Shown here one piece after another: positions 48,601-54,600 of a DNA stretch of 64,000 bases. The position numbers are program-made. Source of the stretch: a virus (taxonomy: Duplodnaviria; Heunggongvirae; Uroviricota; Caudoviricetes). Location: IMG/VR virus record IMGVR_UViG_2718218360_000008; one strand, 5' to 3'. Numbering within the stretch: the stretch's first letter is position 1; every line of letters begins with the position of its first letter.

Positions 48601-51600
48601 GGGAATTAAAACGGCTTGCAGAACGGCAGCTGACGAAATGGGCAAAGCATGTTAGTAACGGCCTGAGCGTTCCGCCAGTACGGCGACAACTGGCGGCACC
48701 AAAACGCCCGTTGGGACCAACGCCAATTGAGTTGCTGAAACAGGAGTATGAACGCCGGAAAGCGGCTGGTTTTGTCTGATTTGAGAAGTAATTTTTATCC
48801 GGAGGAAATTTTAATGGGAACCGTATTGCATGCACTGAAAGCGATGGGTAAAGCCAATTCTGTTGAACTGGCGGCGCGGCTTGATATCAGCCGTGAAGAA
48901 GTTCTCAACGAACTGTGGGAACTCAAAAAAAATGGCGTTGTTGATAAAACGGGTCACACCTGGTTTCTGGCTGTCGAAGGTGAATCCGGGGTAACCGAAG
49001 GGCAGGCACTACAACCTGAAGCGCCGGATGTGGTAACCGAAGAGGTCGCTCCAAAAGTTAGCGCTGACATGATGATTGAGTTTATCGCTCAGGAGGGGGC
49101 TAAAACCTGTGAAGAAATAGCGGGTAAGTTCGGTGTCAGTACTCGCAAGGTTGCTTCCACGCTGGCGGTGGTAACCGCAACGGGGCGGCTGGCACGCGTT
49201 AATCAGAACGGTAGATTTCGTTACTGCATGCCGGGCGATAATTTACCAGCAGAGCCGAAAGCCGCGCTGGTAACGGAAAATGATGGTAAGGCCTTTCCTC
49301 AGCCAGCAGGTGTTGCGTTACCAGTCCGGGAAGCGGAAACACAGGAAGAAATGAAAACAGAAATCGTGGAAGACATTGTGAAGTTACAGCCATCGGTCAC
49401 CGAAACGAAAGCAGATGACCTGATTCTACCATCGCTGCATGTGGCTAACCGAGAGCTGCGCCGGGCGAAAAGTGATGTGCAGAAGTGGGGGCGAGTCTGT
49501 GCCGCTCTGCGGGAACTGAACAAACACAGGGATATTCTCCGGGATATTACCGCCACCAGAGAGCAGCAGTGAGTGGCTGGAAGACGTGGTGCCGGGCTGA
49601 AATCCTGATACTCCGGTAGTGTGCGGGAACGATGACAGTCGAAAGTATCGGCAGTCTGATTGGTCGTAGCGAGGCAGCGGTCAGAGCGAAAGCCCGGGAT
49701 AAGGGAATAAGCCTGATGCTGCGGGGGGATTTTCGCCTGTCAGCCAAATTACCGTATAAAGCGATGGACTGCCTGAAGCGAAACGGACTGATTGGCGCTG
49801 AGGATAGTTTACGATGACCTGGCCTGAGGCATTCGTAACGGTAGGAGTTGCAATGGCGGTAGCGCTGGTGGTGTATTCGATTTGCCGCTGGGGTTGACGT
49901 AATTACTAATCCGGGGCTATATTCACCTCACGGTCGAGTTGACCGTCGGGATTGAGACCCCGGATAGAAACCGCGACAGACACACGCCGCGAGCGTGTTT
50001 TTTATTGTCGTATGCACGCGCACATCTGAATTATGGTGGGGCGTATAGGGGAGCTGAAAAGCTCGCCGGTTGGTTTCCCGGTAGTCTCAACCCTGTACGT
50101 CTCACCACCCGACGATTGAGACCTGACGGTGGTGATAGTTTAGAAACCACCCTAGGGTGTCGTTATGACTACTCAAATCTCTGTTGAAACTCTTGTTGCT
50201 ATTACTTACAACCAAATCCCTGTAATTACCACTGAGTTGTTGGCGCATCTTTATGGTGCAGACGTTAAGAATATTCAAAACAACTTTGCAAGGAATGTAG
50301 GGCGCTTTCAGATTGGAAAACACTTTTTTAAGATCGAAGGTGAAGAGTTACGTGAATTGAAGCACAGACCATCTTTAAGTGGGTCTGTGAAAATCGCCCG
50401 TAACGTTCGTTCCCTCATCCTCTGGACAGAACGCGGAGCAGCCCGTCATGCAAAAATGCTCGAAACCGATCAGGCGTGGGAAGTATTCGAAAAACTCGAA
50501 GACAGTTACTTCAACCAGTACGAGAAAGAGCGGGCTATGGGAAAAATGAATATCGATTTTCACCTGGCGATCCGTGACGATAAAACCGCCTTCATCCGAA
50601 GTTATGCGCCTGGCCAGCTGGTGACGGTTGAAGAAGCCCTGGCTTTGCTTAAATCGCGCGGATGGCTGGTAATGCCACGAGATGAACTGGCCGGAAAATT
50701 AATGGAGCTTTAACCGATTGAGTTAACCTTGATATGGGAATTCCCATATCGGGAGAACATTACCATCGGGGATAAAATGATTTGCGGGGAAAGAAGAGTT
50801 AAGTAGAATTGCTGCGGGTGCTTGAGGCTGTCTGCCTCGGGCATGCCGCCGTAAGGCAGACAGAGAAAAGCCCCAGTTAACATTACGCGTCTTGCAGGAC
50901 GCTTAACATTAATCTGAGGCCAATTTCATGCTTTGCACATGTAGGTTAGCCTCTTACGTGCCGAAAGGCAAGGAGAAGCAGGCTATGAAGCAGCAAAAGG
51001 CGATGTTAATCGCCCTGATTGTCATCTGTTTAACCGTCATAGTGACGGCACTGGTAACGAGGAAAGACCTCTGCGAGGTACGAATCCGAACCGGCCAGAC
51101 GGAGGTCGCTGTCTTCACAGCTTACGAACCTGAGGAGTAAGAGACCTGGCGAGGGAGAAATCCCTCGCCACCTCTGATGTGTCAGGCATCCTCAACGCAC
51201 CCGCACTTAACCTGCTTCGGCGGGTTTTGTTGTATTAGAATATCAGGATATTACCTGGATCCCGTTTTTCTCGACAACTGAAAGAAGCCGAAGAGCTGCA
51301 CCTCCCGGGCGTTTCACTCCTCGTTCCCAGTCTGATATCAGGTTTTTACTGACGTTGAGGTATCTGGCAAAAACAGGTTGAGACAGATGCTCTCGTTCTC
51401 GCAGTGCACGGATCCTTTCCGGAGACATTACCGGCGCAGGCTGAAGACAAGTTTCATCGAATTCGCGCATAGTTTGTTTTGTGATTGCACCGATATCATG
51501 GAGTGACTCCATCATTTCATGTACAGATGCAAGTGCATCACTGCGGTAATTTTTACTCATTGGGTACCTCCGTGAACTGGCCTTGTTGAATCAATTGTGC

Positions 51601-54600
51601 CAGCTGTTCATCAGTAAGATTGAGGACATGGGGAGCGGCTTTTCGAAAAGCATTTTCCTCTATAGCAGTGATATTCTCTCGTTCATTCTTTGCGTATGCG
51701 TAGATGAAAAAGGCTTTTTCTGCAACGCGGTAAAAAATTATTGTCCGGTAACCGCCTGATTTTCCGCCACCACTTCGGGCTAATCTTTGTTTAATGACAC
51801 CACTACCCAAATTTGCGGATATGATCCCCTTATCGGCCTGCTCCACGATTTTGCGCAGCGATTTATCGGAAATCCGATGTTTTCGGGCGAAACGTTCAAA
51901 CCAGGCGTTTTTGAAAATTCGCATACCTGCCTCTGCATTTTATATAACACATAGTGTTACACCATGTGGACTATGGAGGCAATCTTTATTTGAGAATGCT
52001 TGCTGATTTATCGGTGTTCAAAAAATAGACGTAATTCAGATTGTATAAACGGCAGACAGAAAAAGTCATTGTTCTTGCGCATAAAATCCTCAGATTTACT
52101 GAGTGAAATGCGTCTCTTTTCATGGTTATAGTCCGAGAGAAGCGATAATGCATTTCATTTCCTTTACGTCAGGAGGTGTTGTGAAAATCCCAGCCAGTTT
52201 GATCCCGGGGTTTTATGAGAGCACGCGCCCGGTTGTTGTTTACAGAAACAGTGATGGTTCTTTTCAATGTGGTTTTGTTATGCGAAGTAATGAGGTTGTT
52301 GTAAGCCTTTCTCTTCTTTCTGAGGTAAGAGAGTTGGCAGGATTACCTGTTGATGATATTCAGAAGCAGCTATAAAATCAGGCTGACTTGAACCGTCGCT
52401 GAGAAACACCGTGCCACCGGAGATCCCGATGGCGCACGATAGCAGATTGCACAATTCTGCCGCCCTTGCCAGTAGGCAAGGGCGGTGTTCGCACGTATTT
52501 AAAACCGACTGGTTCCAGCATCCCCTATGCACTGAAGAACAGGCCGAATGGCTGATCCAGTGTTACCGCAGGCGCGGATATGAGTTTGAGAAAACCCTCA
52601 GCTTCGATCGTCGTCACTGGATAATCTCCGTCAGGCTCCCTTATTCCGAACGCCCACCGCGTCCGTCCCGCACATTCCAGCAGCGCATCTGGAGGTAACG
52701 TGCGGGTATTACTTCGACCTGTTCTGGTACCGGAACTCGGTCTGGTTATCGTTAAGCCAGGCCGTGAATCAATGTCAGTATTCCATAACGGCAGAATATT
52801 GGTGGAGCCGGAACCGAAAAACATGCGTGGTCTGCCGTCCGGAGTCGTTCCTGCCGTTCGCCAGCCGCTGGCAGAGGATAAAACATTACTGCCATTTTTC
52901 AGCGATGAGCGGGTTATTCGTGCAGCAGGTGGTGCAGGTGCACTGTCTGACTGGTTATTACGTCACGTGAAATCCTGCCAGTGGCCACACGGCGATTATC
53001 ATCACAGCGAAACAGTCATTCACCGTTATGGTACCGGCGCGATGGTGTTGTGCTGGCACTGTGACAACCAGCTGCGCGACCAGACATCAGAATCACTCGA
53101 TCAACTTGCTCAGCAGAATCTGGTTGCCTGGATGATTGATGTCATCCGTCACGCAATAAGCGGTACGCAGGAGAGGGAGTTATCGCTGGCCGAATTATCC
53201 TGGTGGGCGGCCTGCAATCAGGTGGTGGATGCACTACCTGAGGCAGTAGCGCGTCGTTCGCTGGGATTACCAGCGGAAAAAATCCGCTCCGTATACCGTG
53301 AGAGTGACATCGTACCGGGAGAACAGACAGCCATCAGCATACTGAAGCAGCGCACAAAAAATATTGCGCTGCCACTTCACGTCCACCAGCAACAAAATCC
53401 ACCACAGAAAAAAACGGTTGTCAGTATCGCCGTTGATCCGGAGTCTCCTGAATCGTTCATGAGGCGGCCTAAACGTCGCCGTTGGGTTAATGAGAAATAC
53501 ACGCGCTGGGTAAAGACACAGCCGTGTGCGTGTTGTGGTAAGCCAGCTGACGATCCGCATCACCTGATTGGTCATGGTCAGGGGGGAGTGGGAACAAAGG
53601 CCCACGATATTTTCACGCTACCGTTGTGCCGGGAGCACCACAACGAACTTCATGCAGACCCGCTGAAGTTTGAGAAAAAGTACGGCTCTCAGATTGAGTT
53701 AATTTTTCGTTTTCTTGATCACGCCTTTGCGACTGGCGTGCTCGGGTAAAAGAGGTGACTGATGCTCATAGATTTGGTTTTACCTTACCCGCCGACGGTG
53801 AACACTTACTGGCGACGCCGTGGCAGCACATATTTTGTATCAAAAGCCGGGAAGCGTTATCGCCGGGCAGTGGCGCTTATTGTTCGCCAGCAGCGACTGA
53901 AATTAAGCCTGTCCGGACGGCTGGCAATAAAAATTATTGCAGAGCCACCGGATAAGCGCCGCCGCGACCTGGACAATATCCTGAAAGCACCGCTGGATGC
54001 GCTGACGCACGCGGGGTTGTTAATGGACGATGAGCAGTTTGATGAAATCAATATTGTACGTGGAAAGCCAGTATCTGGTGGACGTCTGGGGGTGAAGATT
54101 TACCCCATAATGCTTGAAGGGCAGGTCAAAAAATGAAACTGGAAGATTTACCGAAATACTACTCCCCAAAATCCCCTGGCCTGACCGATGCATCGGCCTC
54201 AACGTCAAAAGATGCGCTGAGTATCACTGATGTGATGGCCGCGCAGGGCATGACACAGAATCGGGCTGAGATGGGGTTTTCTGCGTTCCTTGGGAAAATG
54301 GGCATTAGTATGAATGACAGAGAGCGGGCAACAGAATTGCTGACAGAATATGCACTCAGTCGGTGTGATCGCGTGGCGGCGTTAAGAAAACTCCCGGCAG
54401 AAATAAAACCGGCAGTGATGCGTATTATGGCTTCGTATGCGTTTGAAGATTATGCCCGTAGCGCGGCGAGCAAAAAACAGTGCCCCTGCTGTCACGGAAA
54501 AAAATTTATTGAAAGCGAGGTTTTTACAAACAAGATCCAGTATCCGGATGGTAAGCCGCCAGTGTGGGCAAAGTGCACAAAAGGCGTGTATCCGTCTTAC

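What the first reader, a model, noticed from the sequence alone, without database searches (positions are those of the whole stretch)
50760..51924. Hok-family toxin gene convergent with a toxin-first RelE-like/XRE toxin-antitoxin pair
A hokD-like gene (type I system; the antisense RNA and leader elements would lie in 50760-50990) sits next to a type II pair on the opposite strand. Two addiction or abortive-infection modules in the prophage early-late junction can stabilise the prophage or act in phage defence.
Basis: partly seen in the sequence, partly recalled or inferred. Interest (0 to 1): 0.45.

Follow-up and report, generated by a model that had tools for sequence, protein, structure and literature searches.

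The report
Two ordinary prophage toxin-antitoxin modules
This stretch of an E. coli O157-type lambdoid prophage carries a complete hok/sok (type I) toxin-antitoxin locus next to a HigB2/HigA2-type (type II) pair; both belong to well-known families, are already annotated in hundreds of genomes, and appear to be independent add-on modules.

Summary
Window 50782-51234 (+) holds a complete hok/sok locus. It has the hok promoter, a structured leader (Rfam RF01794, 117 bits), a mok start with its own SD, and a hok CDS 100% identical to K-12 HokD. It also has the 3' fold-back element and a terminator. On the minus strand lies a Sok-type antisense gene whose promoter is identical to that of the experimentally validated sokW. 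K-12 hokD lacks this leader and sok. Converging on hok is a toxin-first operon (51924->51243, -). Its toxin is a PF06296 RelE-superfamily protein (E 1.4e-47), closest in the PDB to Vibrio cholerae HigB2. Three of the four HigB2 catalytic residues are family-conserved; the Tyr82 equivalent is Tyr here but Phe in most relatives. The antitoxin is HigA2-like with a C-terminal XRE domain and overlaps the toxin gene by 8 nt. A conserved palindromic operator candidate sits upstream (51943-51961). The two modules occur independently elsewhere. The hok module is in thousands of E. coli prophages and plasmids. The type II pair fills a variable slot (51234-52427) and accompanies hok in about 150-200 of 5,426 genomes. 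The sequence is 100% identical to annotated O157:H7 chromosomes. Already known; low interest. Biological roles remain untested.

The parts
50782..50809 (+). hok mRNA promoter candidate: -35 TTGCGG (50782-50787), 16-nt spacer, -10 TAGAAT (50804-50809)
   Evidence: Read directly from the sequence. The -10 (TAGAAT/TACAAT) is conserved in 7 aligned hok loci. Homology with other prophage hok modules begins at 50765-50774, just upstream. The strict consensus scan did not report it.
50816..51234 (+). full-length hok mRNA (inferred 5' end at GGGUGC, 3' end at the terminator)
   Evidence: The Rfam RF01794 match starts at 50816. MFE is -181.4 kcal/mol, z -7.3 against shuffles.
50816..50874 (+). 5' leader hairpin (tac-type): 5' GGGUGCUU pairs with AAGCCCC (50868-50874) when the 3' end is removed
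   Evidence: Fold of the 3'-truncated mRNA. It matches the first helix of the Rfam consensus structure.
50916..50930 (+). mok translation initiation region: SD GAGG 50916-50919 and ATG 50928-50930, the target of Sok
   Evidence: Sequence. The ATG and SD are conserved in all 7 loci. mokW is annotated at the homologous place in phage 933W.
50928..51140 (+). mok reading frame, 70 aa, here in frame with hok (an N-terminally extended Hok)
   Evidence: mok is in frame in the 4 prophage loci and +1 out of frame in the IncY plasmid, pF1200 and Pantoea loci.
50985..51140 (+). hok toxin CDS, 51 aa, preceded by SD AGGAG
   Evidence: PF01848 E 1.2e-23. phrog_251 E 2.8e-33. 100% identical to K-12 HokD.
51190..51202 (+). 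fbi (fold-back inhibition) 3' element CCUCAACGCACCC, complementary to the mRNA 5' end GGGUGCUUGAGG
   Evidence: Paired with nt 1-12 in the MFE and centroid structures of the full-length mRNA. Conserved in the non-coding 3' region as far as Pantoea.
51209..51234 (+). intrinsic terminator of hok mRNA (hairpin 51209-51226 plus T-run)
   Evidence: Terminator scan. Also seen in the fold.
50943..50971 (-). sok promoter: -35 TTGCCT (50971-50966), 17-nt spacer, -10 TAACCT (50948-50943)
   Evidence: Sequence. Identical base for base to the sokW promoter region of 933W/Sp5, whose -10 was shown by mutation to be needed for antitoxin activity (PMC8621323). It matches only 7 of 12 consensus positions and was not reported by the scan.
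50864..50938 (-). Sok-type antisense RNA (about 70-75 nt): single-stranded 5' tail, long hairpin, UUUUCU tail; covers the mok SD and start codon
   Evidence: Mapped from the annotated sokW RNA of 933W. Fold -30.9 kcal/mol, z -5.3.
51553..51924 (-). type II toxin, HigB2-type RelE-superfamily protein (123 aa), SD AGAGG 5 nt before the ATG
   Evidence: PF06296 E 1.4e-47, 1-120/120. Best PDB sequence hits are V. cholerae HigB-2. R47, R60 and K79 are invariant or nearly invariant in 42 relatives. 1,418 homologues found.
51243..51560 (-). type II antitoxin, HigA2-like (105 aa): N-terminal about 44 residues, then a C-terminal XRE helix-turn-helix (45-99)
   Evidence: HTH_3 E 1e-7. PDB best hit is HigA-2, E 6.7e-8, residues 45-99. 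phrog_2104 E 5e-43. The same 8-nt overlap and about 105-aa HTH partner are seen in Halomonas and Salmonella.
51941..51961 (-). candidate operator and -10 of the higBA2-like operon: palindrome TAACAC-N3-GTGTTA (51945-51959) inside the conserved 19-mer TGTAACACTATGTGTTATA; -10-like TATATA at 51946-51941
   Evidence: Inverted repeat. Unique in the window. The 19-mer matches 19/19 in phage PhiR12_3 while both flanks diverge, 17/19 in a Salmonella prophage and 16/19 in Halomonas.

Best explanation
Two independent, intact toxin-antitoxin modules of known kinds sit tail to tail in the accessory (nin-type) region of a Qin-like lambdoid prophage.

(1) A complete hok/sok type I locus. The stable hok mRNA is made in an inert form: its 3' fbi element pairs with its 5' end. 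Slow 3' trimming lets the 5' end refold into the tac hairpin and opens the mok/hok start region. The short-lived Sok antisense RNA is transcribed from the opposite strand across the mok SD and start codon. It pairs with that region, blocks mok translation and hence the coupled hok translation, and marks the duplex for RNase III. When Sok synthesis stops, the 51-aa Hok peptide is made and damages the inner membrane. Sok could stop on loss of the element, on prophage induction, or on host shut-off by an infecting phage.

(2) A HigB2/HigA2-type type II operon. The toxin is predicted to be a ribosome-dependent mRNA endonuclease. The antitoxin neutralises it through its N-terminal segment, and through its C-terminal XRE domain it represses the operon at a palindrome that overlaps the -10.

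Shown here: the sequence anatomy, the homology, the RNA folds, the conserved residues and the conserved operator motif. Inferred from characterised relatives (R1 hok/sok, hokW-sokW, VcHigBA2): every activity.
For: hok/sok:
- Rfam RF01794 matches full length at 117 bits; HOK_GEF E 1.2e-23.
- The locus is 91% identical along its whole length to the annotated mokW/hokW/sokW locus of 933W, and the sok promoter is identical.
- hokW-sokW was shown to be a working type I TA, with a promoter-dependent sokW antitoxin (PMC8621323).
- The full-length mRNA MFE pairs nt 1-12 with 51190-51202 (fbi), z -7.3. The truncated mRNA refolds its 5' end into the Rfam-consensus hairpin.
- The Sok fold is a tail, a hairpin and a U-tail, z -5.3.

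Type II pair:
- PF06296 E 1.4e-47. The PDB sequence search gives only HigB-2 and HigA-2 as significant relatives.
- The VcHigB2 catalytic residues Arg51, Arg64, Tyr82 and Lys84 (PMC5416850) align with R47, R60, Y77 and K79. R60 and K79 are invariant and R47 nearly invariant in 42 relatives.
- Toxin-first order with an 8-nt overlap and an about 105-aa HTH partner is conserved in Halomonas and Salmonella.
- The 19-nt palindromic motif is conserved upstream in three other contexts. This matches the VcHigA2 operator, an inverted repeat that extends over the -10 (PMC11006873).

Independence:
- The hok module 50765-51233 recurs without the pair, and 51234-52427 is a variable slot.
- The pair recurs without hok.
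Against: - No expression or activity data exist for this locus.
- The sok -10 (TAACCT) and the hok promoter are weak by consensus and were missed by the scan.
- The family consensus has Phe at position 77, where VcHigB2 has the important Tyr82. The window has Tyr, and the invariant Tyr is Y75, so the catalytic assignment of that residue is uncertain.
- The AF2 model of the toxin has only moderate confidence (pLDDT 70). Its match to HigB2 is weak (TM 0.40-0.48, E 0.012), although HigB2 chains are the top four hits.
- The antitoxin N-terminal segment shows no detectable sequence similarity to the HigA2 neutralising segment.
- Many chromosomal hok loci in K-12 are known to be inactivated, so intactness by sequence does not prove function.
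Confidence: 0.85

Rival explanations
1. One or both modules are decayed relics with no activity, like the K-12 chromosomal hok loci: the sequences are present but silent or non-toxic.
For: K-12 hokD retains only the part from 50971 onward and lacks the promoter, leader and sok. The homologous toxin gene in phage PhiR12_3 carries a 1-nt deletion and is annotated as truncated, so decay does occur in this family. The sok and hok promoters match the consensus poorly.
Against: Every known element is intact here: promoters, tac, mok TIR, sok, fbi and terminator. The ORFs are full length. Three of the four HigB2 catalytic positions (R47, R60, K79) are family-conserved, and the fourth is Tyr here but Phe in most relatives. 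The sok promoter equals the functional sokW promoter. The sequence is kept at 100% identity in many STEC lineages.
Confidence: 0.08
2. The two modules form one composite system. Convergent transcription from the higBA2-like promoter reads through into hok in antisense, because there is no intrinsic terminator on the minus strand. The state of the type II module would then control Hok production, or the reverse.
For: The minus strand downstream of the antitoxin stop has no hairpin-plus-U-run terminator. The hok terminator hairpin loses a pair when read on the minus strand (a G-U pair becomes C-A). The genes are only 102 bp apart.
Against: The modules are distributed independently. hok modules occur in thousands of genomes without the pair, and the pair occurs in Salmonella prophages, PhiR12_3 and Halomonas without hok. 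The junction at 51233/51234 is a recombination breakpoint between cassettes. Rho-dependent termination cannot be excluded.
Confidence: 0.05
3. Biological role: the hok/sok locus mainly serves the phage by speeding lysis and release after induction, as reported for hokW-sokW, rather than acting as a prophage addiction or anti-phage abortive-infection module.
For: In Sp5, MMC/RecA-dependent induction removes sokW RNA, HokW accumulates in the inner membrane, and deleting the locus halves phage release (PMC8621323). The window locus is 91% identical overall, with an identical sok promoter.
Against: This prophage is a different, Qin-like element (dicB, ydfC, dicA-type immunity region), and it may not be inducible. 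R1 hok/sok stabilises plasmids and reduces T4 plating (cited in PMC8621323). The roles are not mutually exclusive.
Confidence: 0.3

Closest known systems
hokW-sokW (mokW/hokW/sokW) of Stx2 phages 933W and Sakai Sp5
   Same: About 91% DNA identity over the whole about 440-bp module. Same order of elements. mok is in frame with hok. The sok promoter is identical. Hok is 51 aa and differs only near the C-terminus. hokW-sokW has been experimentally validated as a type I TA (PMC8621323).
   Different: It sits elsewhere in the phage: near the tail-fibre end and attachment region in 933W, against the nin region here. The Sok 5' tail and mok start differ at several positions. This copy has not been tested.
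hok/sok (parB) of plasmid R1
   Same: Same architecture and, by inference, the same mechanism: stable mRNA with fbi and tac alternative folds, a mok-coupled hok, and a short cis-antisense Sok over the mok TIR (mechanism as summarised in PMC8621323).
   Different: Hok identity is only about 44% (the figure given for HokW in PMC8621323). mok here is in frame with hok; it is out of frame in the plasmid and Pantoea loci examined, and in R1 as I recall it. The locus is on a prophage, not a plasmid.
hokD (relF) of the K-12 Qin prophage, downstream of relBE
   Same: The Hok protein is identical, 51/51. DNA is 98% identical from the hok SD through the fbi element and terminator. The position is syntenic, upstream of DUF968 (ydfU) and Q.
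   Different: K-12 homology starts only at 50971, so K-12 lacks the hok promoter, leader, mok start, Sok and the sok -10. relBE occupies that place. Here the locus is complete, and the neighbouring type II pair belongs to a different family, lies on the other side and is on the opposite strand.
Vibrio cholerae HigB2/HigA2 (PDB 5JA8, 5JAA, 8A0X)
   Same: Same Pfam family, PF06296 (PMC11980606). Toxin-first operon. Arg51, Arg64, Tyr82 and Lys84 align with R47, R60, Y77 and K79. The antitoxin has the same length, with a C-terminal XRE domain (E 6.7e-8). A palindromic site lies over the -10.
   Different: Only about 23-26% identity in the structural alignment. The operator sequence differs: TAACAC-N3-GTGTTA against TGTACGC-N5-GCGTACA. 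The antitoxin N-terminal segment shows no detectable similarity. VcHigBA2 lies in a chromosomal superintegron; this pair lies in a prophage. No biochemical data exist for this pair.

Membership tests
hok/sok type I toxin-antitoxin loci | Hok/Gef-family small hydrophobic toxin (about 50 aa) | tested here: met
   PF01848 E 1.2e-23, 1-42/42; 100% identical to K-12 HokD.
hok/sok type I toxin-antitoxin loci | Conserved, structured mRNA leader upstream of hok | tested here: met
   Rfam RF01794 at 117.3 bits against a gathering score of 59, model 1-157/157. The Rfam 'sok' model matches the hok-sense strand, so it models the leader and not the antisense RNA itself.
hok/sok type I toxin-antitoxin loci | Overlapping upstream reading frame (mok) with its own SD, through which hok is translated | tested here: met
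   SD GAGG at 50916-50919 and ATG at 50928, conserved in 7 loci. Here mok is in frame with hok, as annotated for mokW. Translational coupling itself cannot be tested here.
hok/sok type I toxin-antitoxin loci | Cis-encoded antisense RNA gene (promoter, 5' tail, terminator hairpin) covering the mok translation start | tested here: met
   Promoter at 50971-50943 identical to the validated sokW promoter. Tail plus hairpin plus U-run fold, z -5.3. Position mapped from the sokW annotation. The transcript itself was not observed.
hok/sok type I toxin-antitoxin loci | Long-range 5'-3' pairing (fbi) that keeps the full-length mRNA inert, with an alternative 5' hairpin (tac) after 3' trimming | tested here: met
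   nt 1-12 pair with 51190-51202 in the MFE and centroid structures. The truncated RNA forms the 5' hairpin. The element is conserved as far as Pantoea but invariant, so it gives no covariation evidence.
hok/sok type I toxin-antitoxin loci | Hok toxicity and Sok-dependent repression | not testable with these tools
   Shown for the 91%-identical hokW-sokW locus (PMC8621323).
HigB2/HigA2-type (Pfam PF06296) type II toxin-antitoxin | Toxin matches PF06296 over its full length | tested here: met
   E 1.4e-47, 1-120/120. All 120 listed homologues carry PF06296.
HigB2/HigA2-type (Pfam PF06296) type II toxin-antitoxin | RelE-like active-site residues (VcHigB2 Arg51, Arg64, Tyr82, Lys84) | tested here: met
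   The pairwise alignment gives R47, R60, Y77 and K79. R60 and K79 are invariant and R47 nearly invariant in 42 relatives. Caveat: most relatives have F at position 77, and the invariant Tyr is Y75.
HigB2/HigA2-type (Pfam PF06296) type II toxin-antitoxin | Toxin gene upstream of the antitoxin gene in one operon | tested here: met
   Toxin 51924->51553 and antitoxin 51560->51243, with an 8-nt overlap. The same layout occurs in Halomonas and Salmonella.
HigB2/HigA2-type (Pfam PF06296) type II toxin-antitoxin | Antitoxin with a C-terminal XRE-type HTH dimerisation and DNA-binding domain related to HigA2 | tested here: met
   PDB HigA-2 E 6.7e-8, residues 45-99; HTH_3 E 1e-7.
HigB2/HigA2-type (Pfam PF06296) type II toxin-antitoxin | Disordered N-terminal toxin-neutralising segment in the antitoxin | not tested
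   An about 44-residue N-terminal segment exists, but it shows no detectable similarity to the HigA2 N-terminus. No model of the complex could be made.
HigB2/HigA2-type (Pfam PF06296) type II toxin-antitoxin | Single inverted-repeat operator overlapping the -10 | tested here: met
   TAACAC-N3-GTGTTA lies within a 19-mer conserved at 19/19, 17/19 and 16/19 in three other contexts while the flanks diverge. Binding was not tested. The repeat sequence differs from the V. cholerae operator.
HigB2/HigA2-type (Pfam PF06296) type II toxin-antitoxin | RelE/BECR fold of the toxin | tested here: inconclusive
   AF2 mean pLDDT 70, pTM 0.66. The Foldseek top four hits are HigB2 chains, but they are weak: E 0.012-0.095, TM 0.34-0.48.
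HigB2/HigA2-type (Pfam PF06296) type II toxin-antitoxin | Ribosome-dependent mRNA cleavage | not testable with these tools
   Known for VcHigB2 (PMC5416850).
Canonical RelBE (E. coli K-12 relBE; toxin in Pfam PF05016, antitoxin first) | Antitoxin-first order, RelB-type antitoxin, PF05016 toxin | tested here: not met
   The gene order is toxin-first. The antitoxin is XRE-type, not RelB. The toxin hits PF06296 only. K-12 RelE is classified in PF05016 (PMC11980606).

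The most novel reading that the evidence does not exclude
In this arrangement the two modules may be wired together. When the HigA2-like repressor is lost, the derepressed operon has no intrinsic terminator on its strand. It could then transcribe through the hok gene in antisense and act as a second, conditional anti-hok RNA or as transcriptional interference. A type II module would thereby gate a type I toxin. A related, smaller possibility concerns the Sok 5' tail and mok start region, which is hypervariable (10 of 23 positions among four O157-type copies). This variation may keep the 6-10 co-resident hok/sok copies of an O157 genome from cross-talking.
Probability: 0.06. 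Interest if true: 0.5.

Novelty: already known. Interest (0 to 1): 0.15.

Why it matters
It matters little beyond correct annotation. The locus shows what the K-12 hokD remnant looked like before relBE replaced its leader, and it adds one more untested prophage-borne HigBA2-type pair. If the modules are active, they could affect prophage retention, lysis timing after induction (relevant to STEC prophages), or exclusion of other phages. All of these roles have already been proposed or shown for close relatives.

Tried and rejected
- The consensus sigma-70 and terminator scan over 50650-52150 found the hok terminator but none of the hok, sok or higBA2 promoters. Promoter calls therefore rest on homology with sokW and on conservation, not on consensus strength.
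- PADLOC gave no hit for Hok or the toxin, and only generic HTH hits for the antitoxin. There is no support for filing the region under a named defence system.
- NCBIfam has no model for the toxin and only sub-threshold Hok hits.
- Literature searches by RefSeq protein accession found nothing. A broader search returned only reviews. No study of this particular type II pair was found.
- AF2 plus Foldseek on the toxin was only weakly informative.
- Covariation support for the fbi pairing could not be obtained, because both partners are invariant in the seven loci aligned.
- The idea that the hok locus and the type II pair travel as one unit was rejected on distribution.
- Canonical RelBE membership was rejected.

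Full report
**Observation**

- hok is a 51-aa ORF at 50985-51140 (+). It is a Hok/Gef peptide (PF01848, E 1.2e-23).
- The toxin is a 123-aa ORF at 51553-51924 (-). It matches Pfam PF06296 'RelE' over its full length (E 1.4e-47).
- The antitoxin is a 105-aa ORF at 51243-51560 (-). It carries an XRE-type helix-turn-helix domain (HTH_3 E 1e-7).

On the minus strand the toxin gene comes first and overlaps the antitoxin gene by 8 nt. hok and the pair converge, with 102 bp between their stop codons.

The 1.3-kb stretch is 100% identical to many E. coli O157:H7 and other STEC chromosomes. There PGAP already annotates hokD, an HTH protein and a RelE/ParE-family toxin.

The surroundings are those of a Qin-like lambdoid prophage. 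Upstream lie dicB, ydfC, a dicA-like repressor, replication genes and an ORF6N antirepressor. Downstream lie DUF968, RusA and the Q antiterminator. 'Early-late junction' is therefore a fair description.

**The type I locus is complete**

- **Leader.** The Rfam model RF01794 matches 50816-50990 end to end (117.3 bits, gathering score 59, E 2.5e-27). The match is on the hok-sense strand. This Rfam 'sok' model therefore describes the hok mRNA leader, not the antisense RNA itself.
- **Homology to hokW.** The module is about 91% identical along its length to the mokW/hokW/sokW locus of Stx2 phage 933W, where the antisense RNA is annotated.
- **Antisense gene.** Mapping that annotation onto the window places the Sok-type RNA at about 50938->50864 on the minus strand. 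Its promoter is -35 TTGCCT (50971-50966), a 17-nt spacer and -10 TAACCT (50948-50943). The promoter is weak by consensus and the scan missed it. It is nevertheless identical, base for base, to the sokW promoter, whose -10 was shown by mutation to be required for antitoxin activity (PMC8621323).
- **Sok fold.** The RNA folds into a short single-stranded 5' tail, a long hairpin and a UUUUCU tail (-30.9 kcal/mol, z -5.3). It covers the mok SD (GAGG, 50916-50919) and start codon (50928).
- **hok promoter.** The candidate is TTGCGG-16 nt-TAGAAT at 50782-50809, just inside the left edge of the conserved module.
- **Alternative mRNA folds.** In the predicted full-length mRNA (50816-51234), the first 12 nt (GGGUGCUUGAGG) pair with CCUCAACGCACCC at 51190-51202. 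This is the fold-back-inhibition arrangement of hok mRNAs (MFE -181.4 kcal/mol, z -7.3). With the 3' end removed, the 5' end refolds into the leader hairpin of the Rfam consensus.
- **Terminator.** A terminator follows at 51209-51234.

**Relation to K-12 hokD**

The Hok peptide is 51/51 identical to K-12 HokD. K-12 homology, however, begins only at 50971, within the sok -35, and runs through the 3' end. K-12 hokD thus lacks the hok promoter, the leader, the mok start and sok, and relBE occupies that place.

The window carries the intact form of a locus of which K-12 hokD is a truncated remnant. It sits at the syntenic position upstream of DUF968 (ydfU) and Q.

**The type II pair is HigB2/HigA2-type**

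- **Sequence relatives.** The only significant PDB sequence relatives are V. cholerae HigB-2 for the toxin (E about 4e-4) and HigA-2 for the antitoxin (E 6.7e-8, residues 45-99).
- **Family.** PF06296 is the family that contains HigB2. K-12 RelE belongs to PF05016 (PMC11980606).
- **Catalytic residues.** The four residues shown by mutagenesis to matter in VcHigB2 are Arg51, Arg64, Tyr82 and Lys84 (PMC5416850). They align with R47, R60, Y77 and K79. In an alignment with 41 relatives of 59-85% identity, R60 and K79 are invariant and R47 is nearly invariant. Most relatives have Phe at position 77, and the invariant Tyr is Y75, two residues earlier on the same strand. The Tyr assignment is therefore uncertain.
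- **Fold.** An AF2 model had moderate confidence (pLDDT 70). Its top four Foldseek hits in the PDB were HigB2 chains, but they were weak (E 0.012-0.095, TM 0.34-0.48). The fold test is inconclusive.
- **Operon layout.** Toxin-first order, the 8-nt overlap and an about 105-aa HTH partner recur in Halomonas chromosomes and Salmonella prophages.
- **Operator candidate.** Upstream of the toxin gene lies the palindrome TAACAC-N3-GTGTTA (51945-51959). It sits inside the 19-mer TGTAACACTATGTGTTATA. That 19-mer matches 19/19 in the about 80%-identical cassette of phage PhiR12_3, where both flanks diverge. It matches 17/19 in a Salmonella prophage and 16/19 in Halomonas. It overlaps a -10-like TATATA. 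V. cholerae HigA2 likewise binds a single inverted repeat that extends over the -10 (PMC11006873). This is good comparative evidence for an operator, but binding is untested.

**The two modules are independent**

- The hok module (50765-51233) recurs in thousands of E. coli genomes and plasmids.
- In other O157 prophages it is followed, 75 bp or a few hundred bp later, by the same 'hypothetical-DUF968-RusA-Q' genes.
- The segment 51234-52427 is a variable slot. Here it holds the type II pair and a small ORF of unknown function.
- Only about 150-200 of 5,426 genomes carry hok and the pair together.
- Conversely, the pair occurs without any hok/sok in PhiR12_3 and in Salmonella prophages.

**Mechanism and role**

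The best-supported reading is two self-contained modules of known kinds.
- **hok/sok (inferred from R1 and hokW-sokW).** An unstable Sok RNA blocks mok translation, and hence hok translation, on a stable mRNA that activates slowly. Hok is made when Sok synthesis stops.
- **Type II pair (inferred from VcHigBA2).** A ribosome-dependent mRNase is held inactive by an antitoxin that also represses the operon.

All activities are inferred from relatives. For the biological role, the only experiment on the closest hok relative shows RecA-dependent loss of sokW on induction, HokW at the inner membrane and a twofold loss of phage release in the deletion mutant (PMC8621323). Plasmid-type addiction and T4 exclusion are documented for R1. 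None of these was tested for this prophage.

**Rivals**

- **Inactive relics.** This is unlikely because every element is intact and the sequence is conserved at 100% across lineages.
- **A composite system coupled by antisense read-through.** The minus strand has no obvious terminator after the antitoxin gene. The independent distribution argues against an evolved coupling.

**Verdict**

Both modules are already known and annotated. Interest is low.

Noticed in passing
window 49917-50713 (+): An immI-like module lies just upstream of hok. It consists of a below-threshold match to the c4 target sites a1/b1 (26.2 bits against a gathering score of 46.7), isrK (49930-50003, 52 bits), a C4-type antisense RNA (50029-50112, 70.5 bits) and an ORF6N antirepressor (50165-50713).
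   Followed up: partly
L009 2487-4184; L012-L014 about 2500-5384; window 49917-51924: The PF06296/HTH pair recurs next to C4/isrK/sRNA-Xcc1-type RNAs and antirepressor genes (ORF6N or pRha) in phage PhiR12_3 and in Salmonella prophages, where no hok/sok is present. The association with antirepressor modules is unexplained.
   Followed up: partly
window 50928-51140; A2 alignment: mok is in frame with hok in all four prophage loci, giving a 70-aa N-terminally extended Hok. It is +1 out of frame in the IncY plasmid, pF1200 and Pantoea loci. The difference is a 1-nt indel inside the sok -35 region.
   Followed up: partly
window 50916-50938: Among four O157-type prophage hok loci, the Sok 5' tail and mok start region varies at 10 of 23 positions. 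The sok promoter, the Sok hairpin and the hok CDS vary at 5-7%. This may insulate the 6-10 co-resident copies per genome from one another. The sample is small.
   Followed up: partly
window 50731-50750: A perfect 20-bp palindrome, GATATGGGAATTCCCATATC, is unique in the window. It lies at the upstream edge of the hok module and is also present in front of the hok module of another O157 prophage with different upstream genes (L004). Its function is unknown.
   Followed up: no
window 51100-51243 (-): There is no hairpin-plus-U-run terminator for the higBA2-like operon on its own strand. Read-through transcripts would be antisense to the hok 3' UTR and CDS.
   Followed up: no
window 52181-52375 (+): A small ORF of unknown function (phrog_31309, E 7.8e-48; PGAP calls it hypothetical) lies inside the variable slot, divergent from the toxin gene. 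It is absent next to the pair in PhiR12_3.
   Followed up: no
L009 2800-3170: The homologous toxin gene in phage PhiR12_3 has a 1-nt deletion near its 5' end. It is annotated only as a shorter 84-aa ORF, while the antitoxin gene is intact. It may be a decayed toxin with a retained antitoxin.
   Followed up: no
window 50816-50990: The Rfam family named 'sok antitoxin' (RF01794) matches the hok-sense strand and ends at the hok AUG. It models the hok mRNA leader rather than the antisense RNA.
   Followed up: yes
window 44950-45001 (-), 56634-56693 (+), 56779-56971 (+), 56973-57034 (-): Other RNA genes in the window are DicF, a tRNA, STnc100 and the anti-GcvB sRNA AgvB. These are typical of O157 lambdoid prophages.
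   Followed up: no
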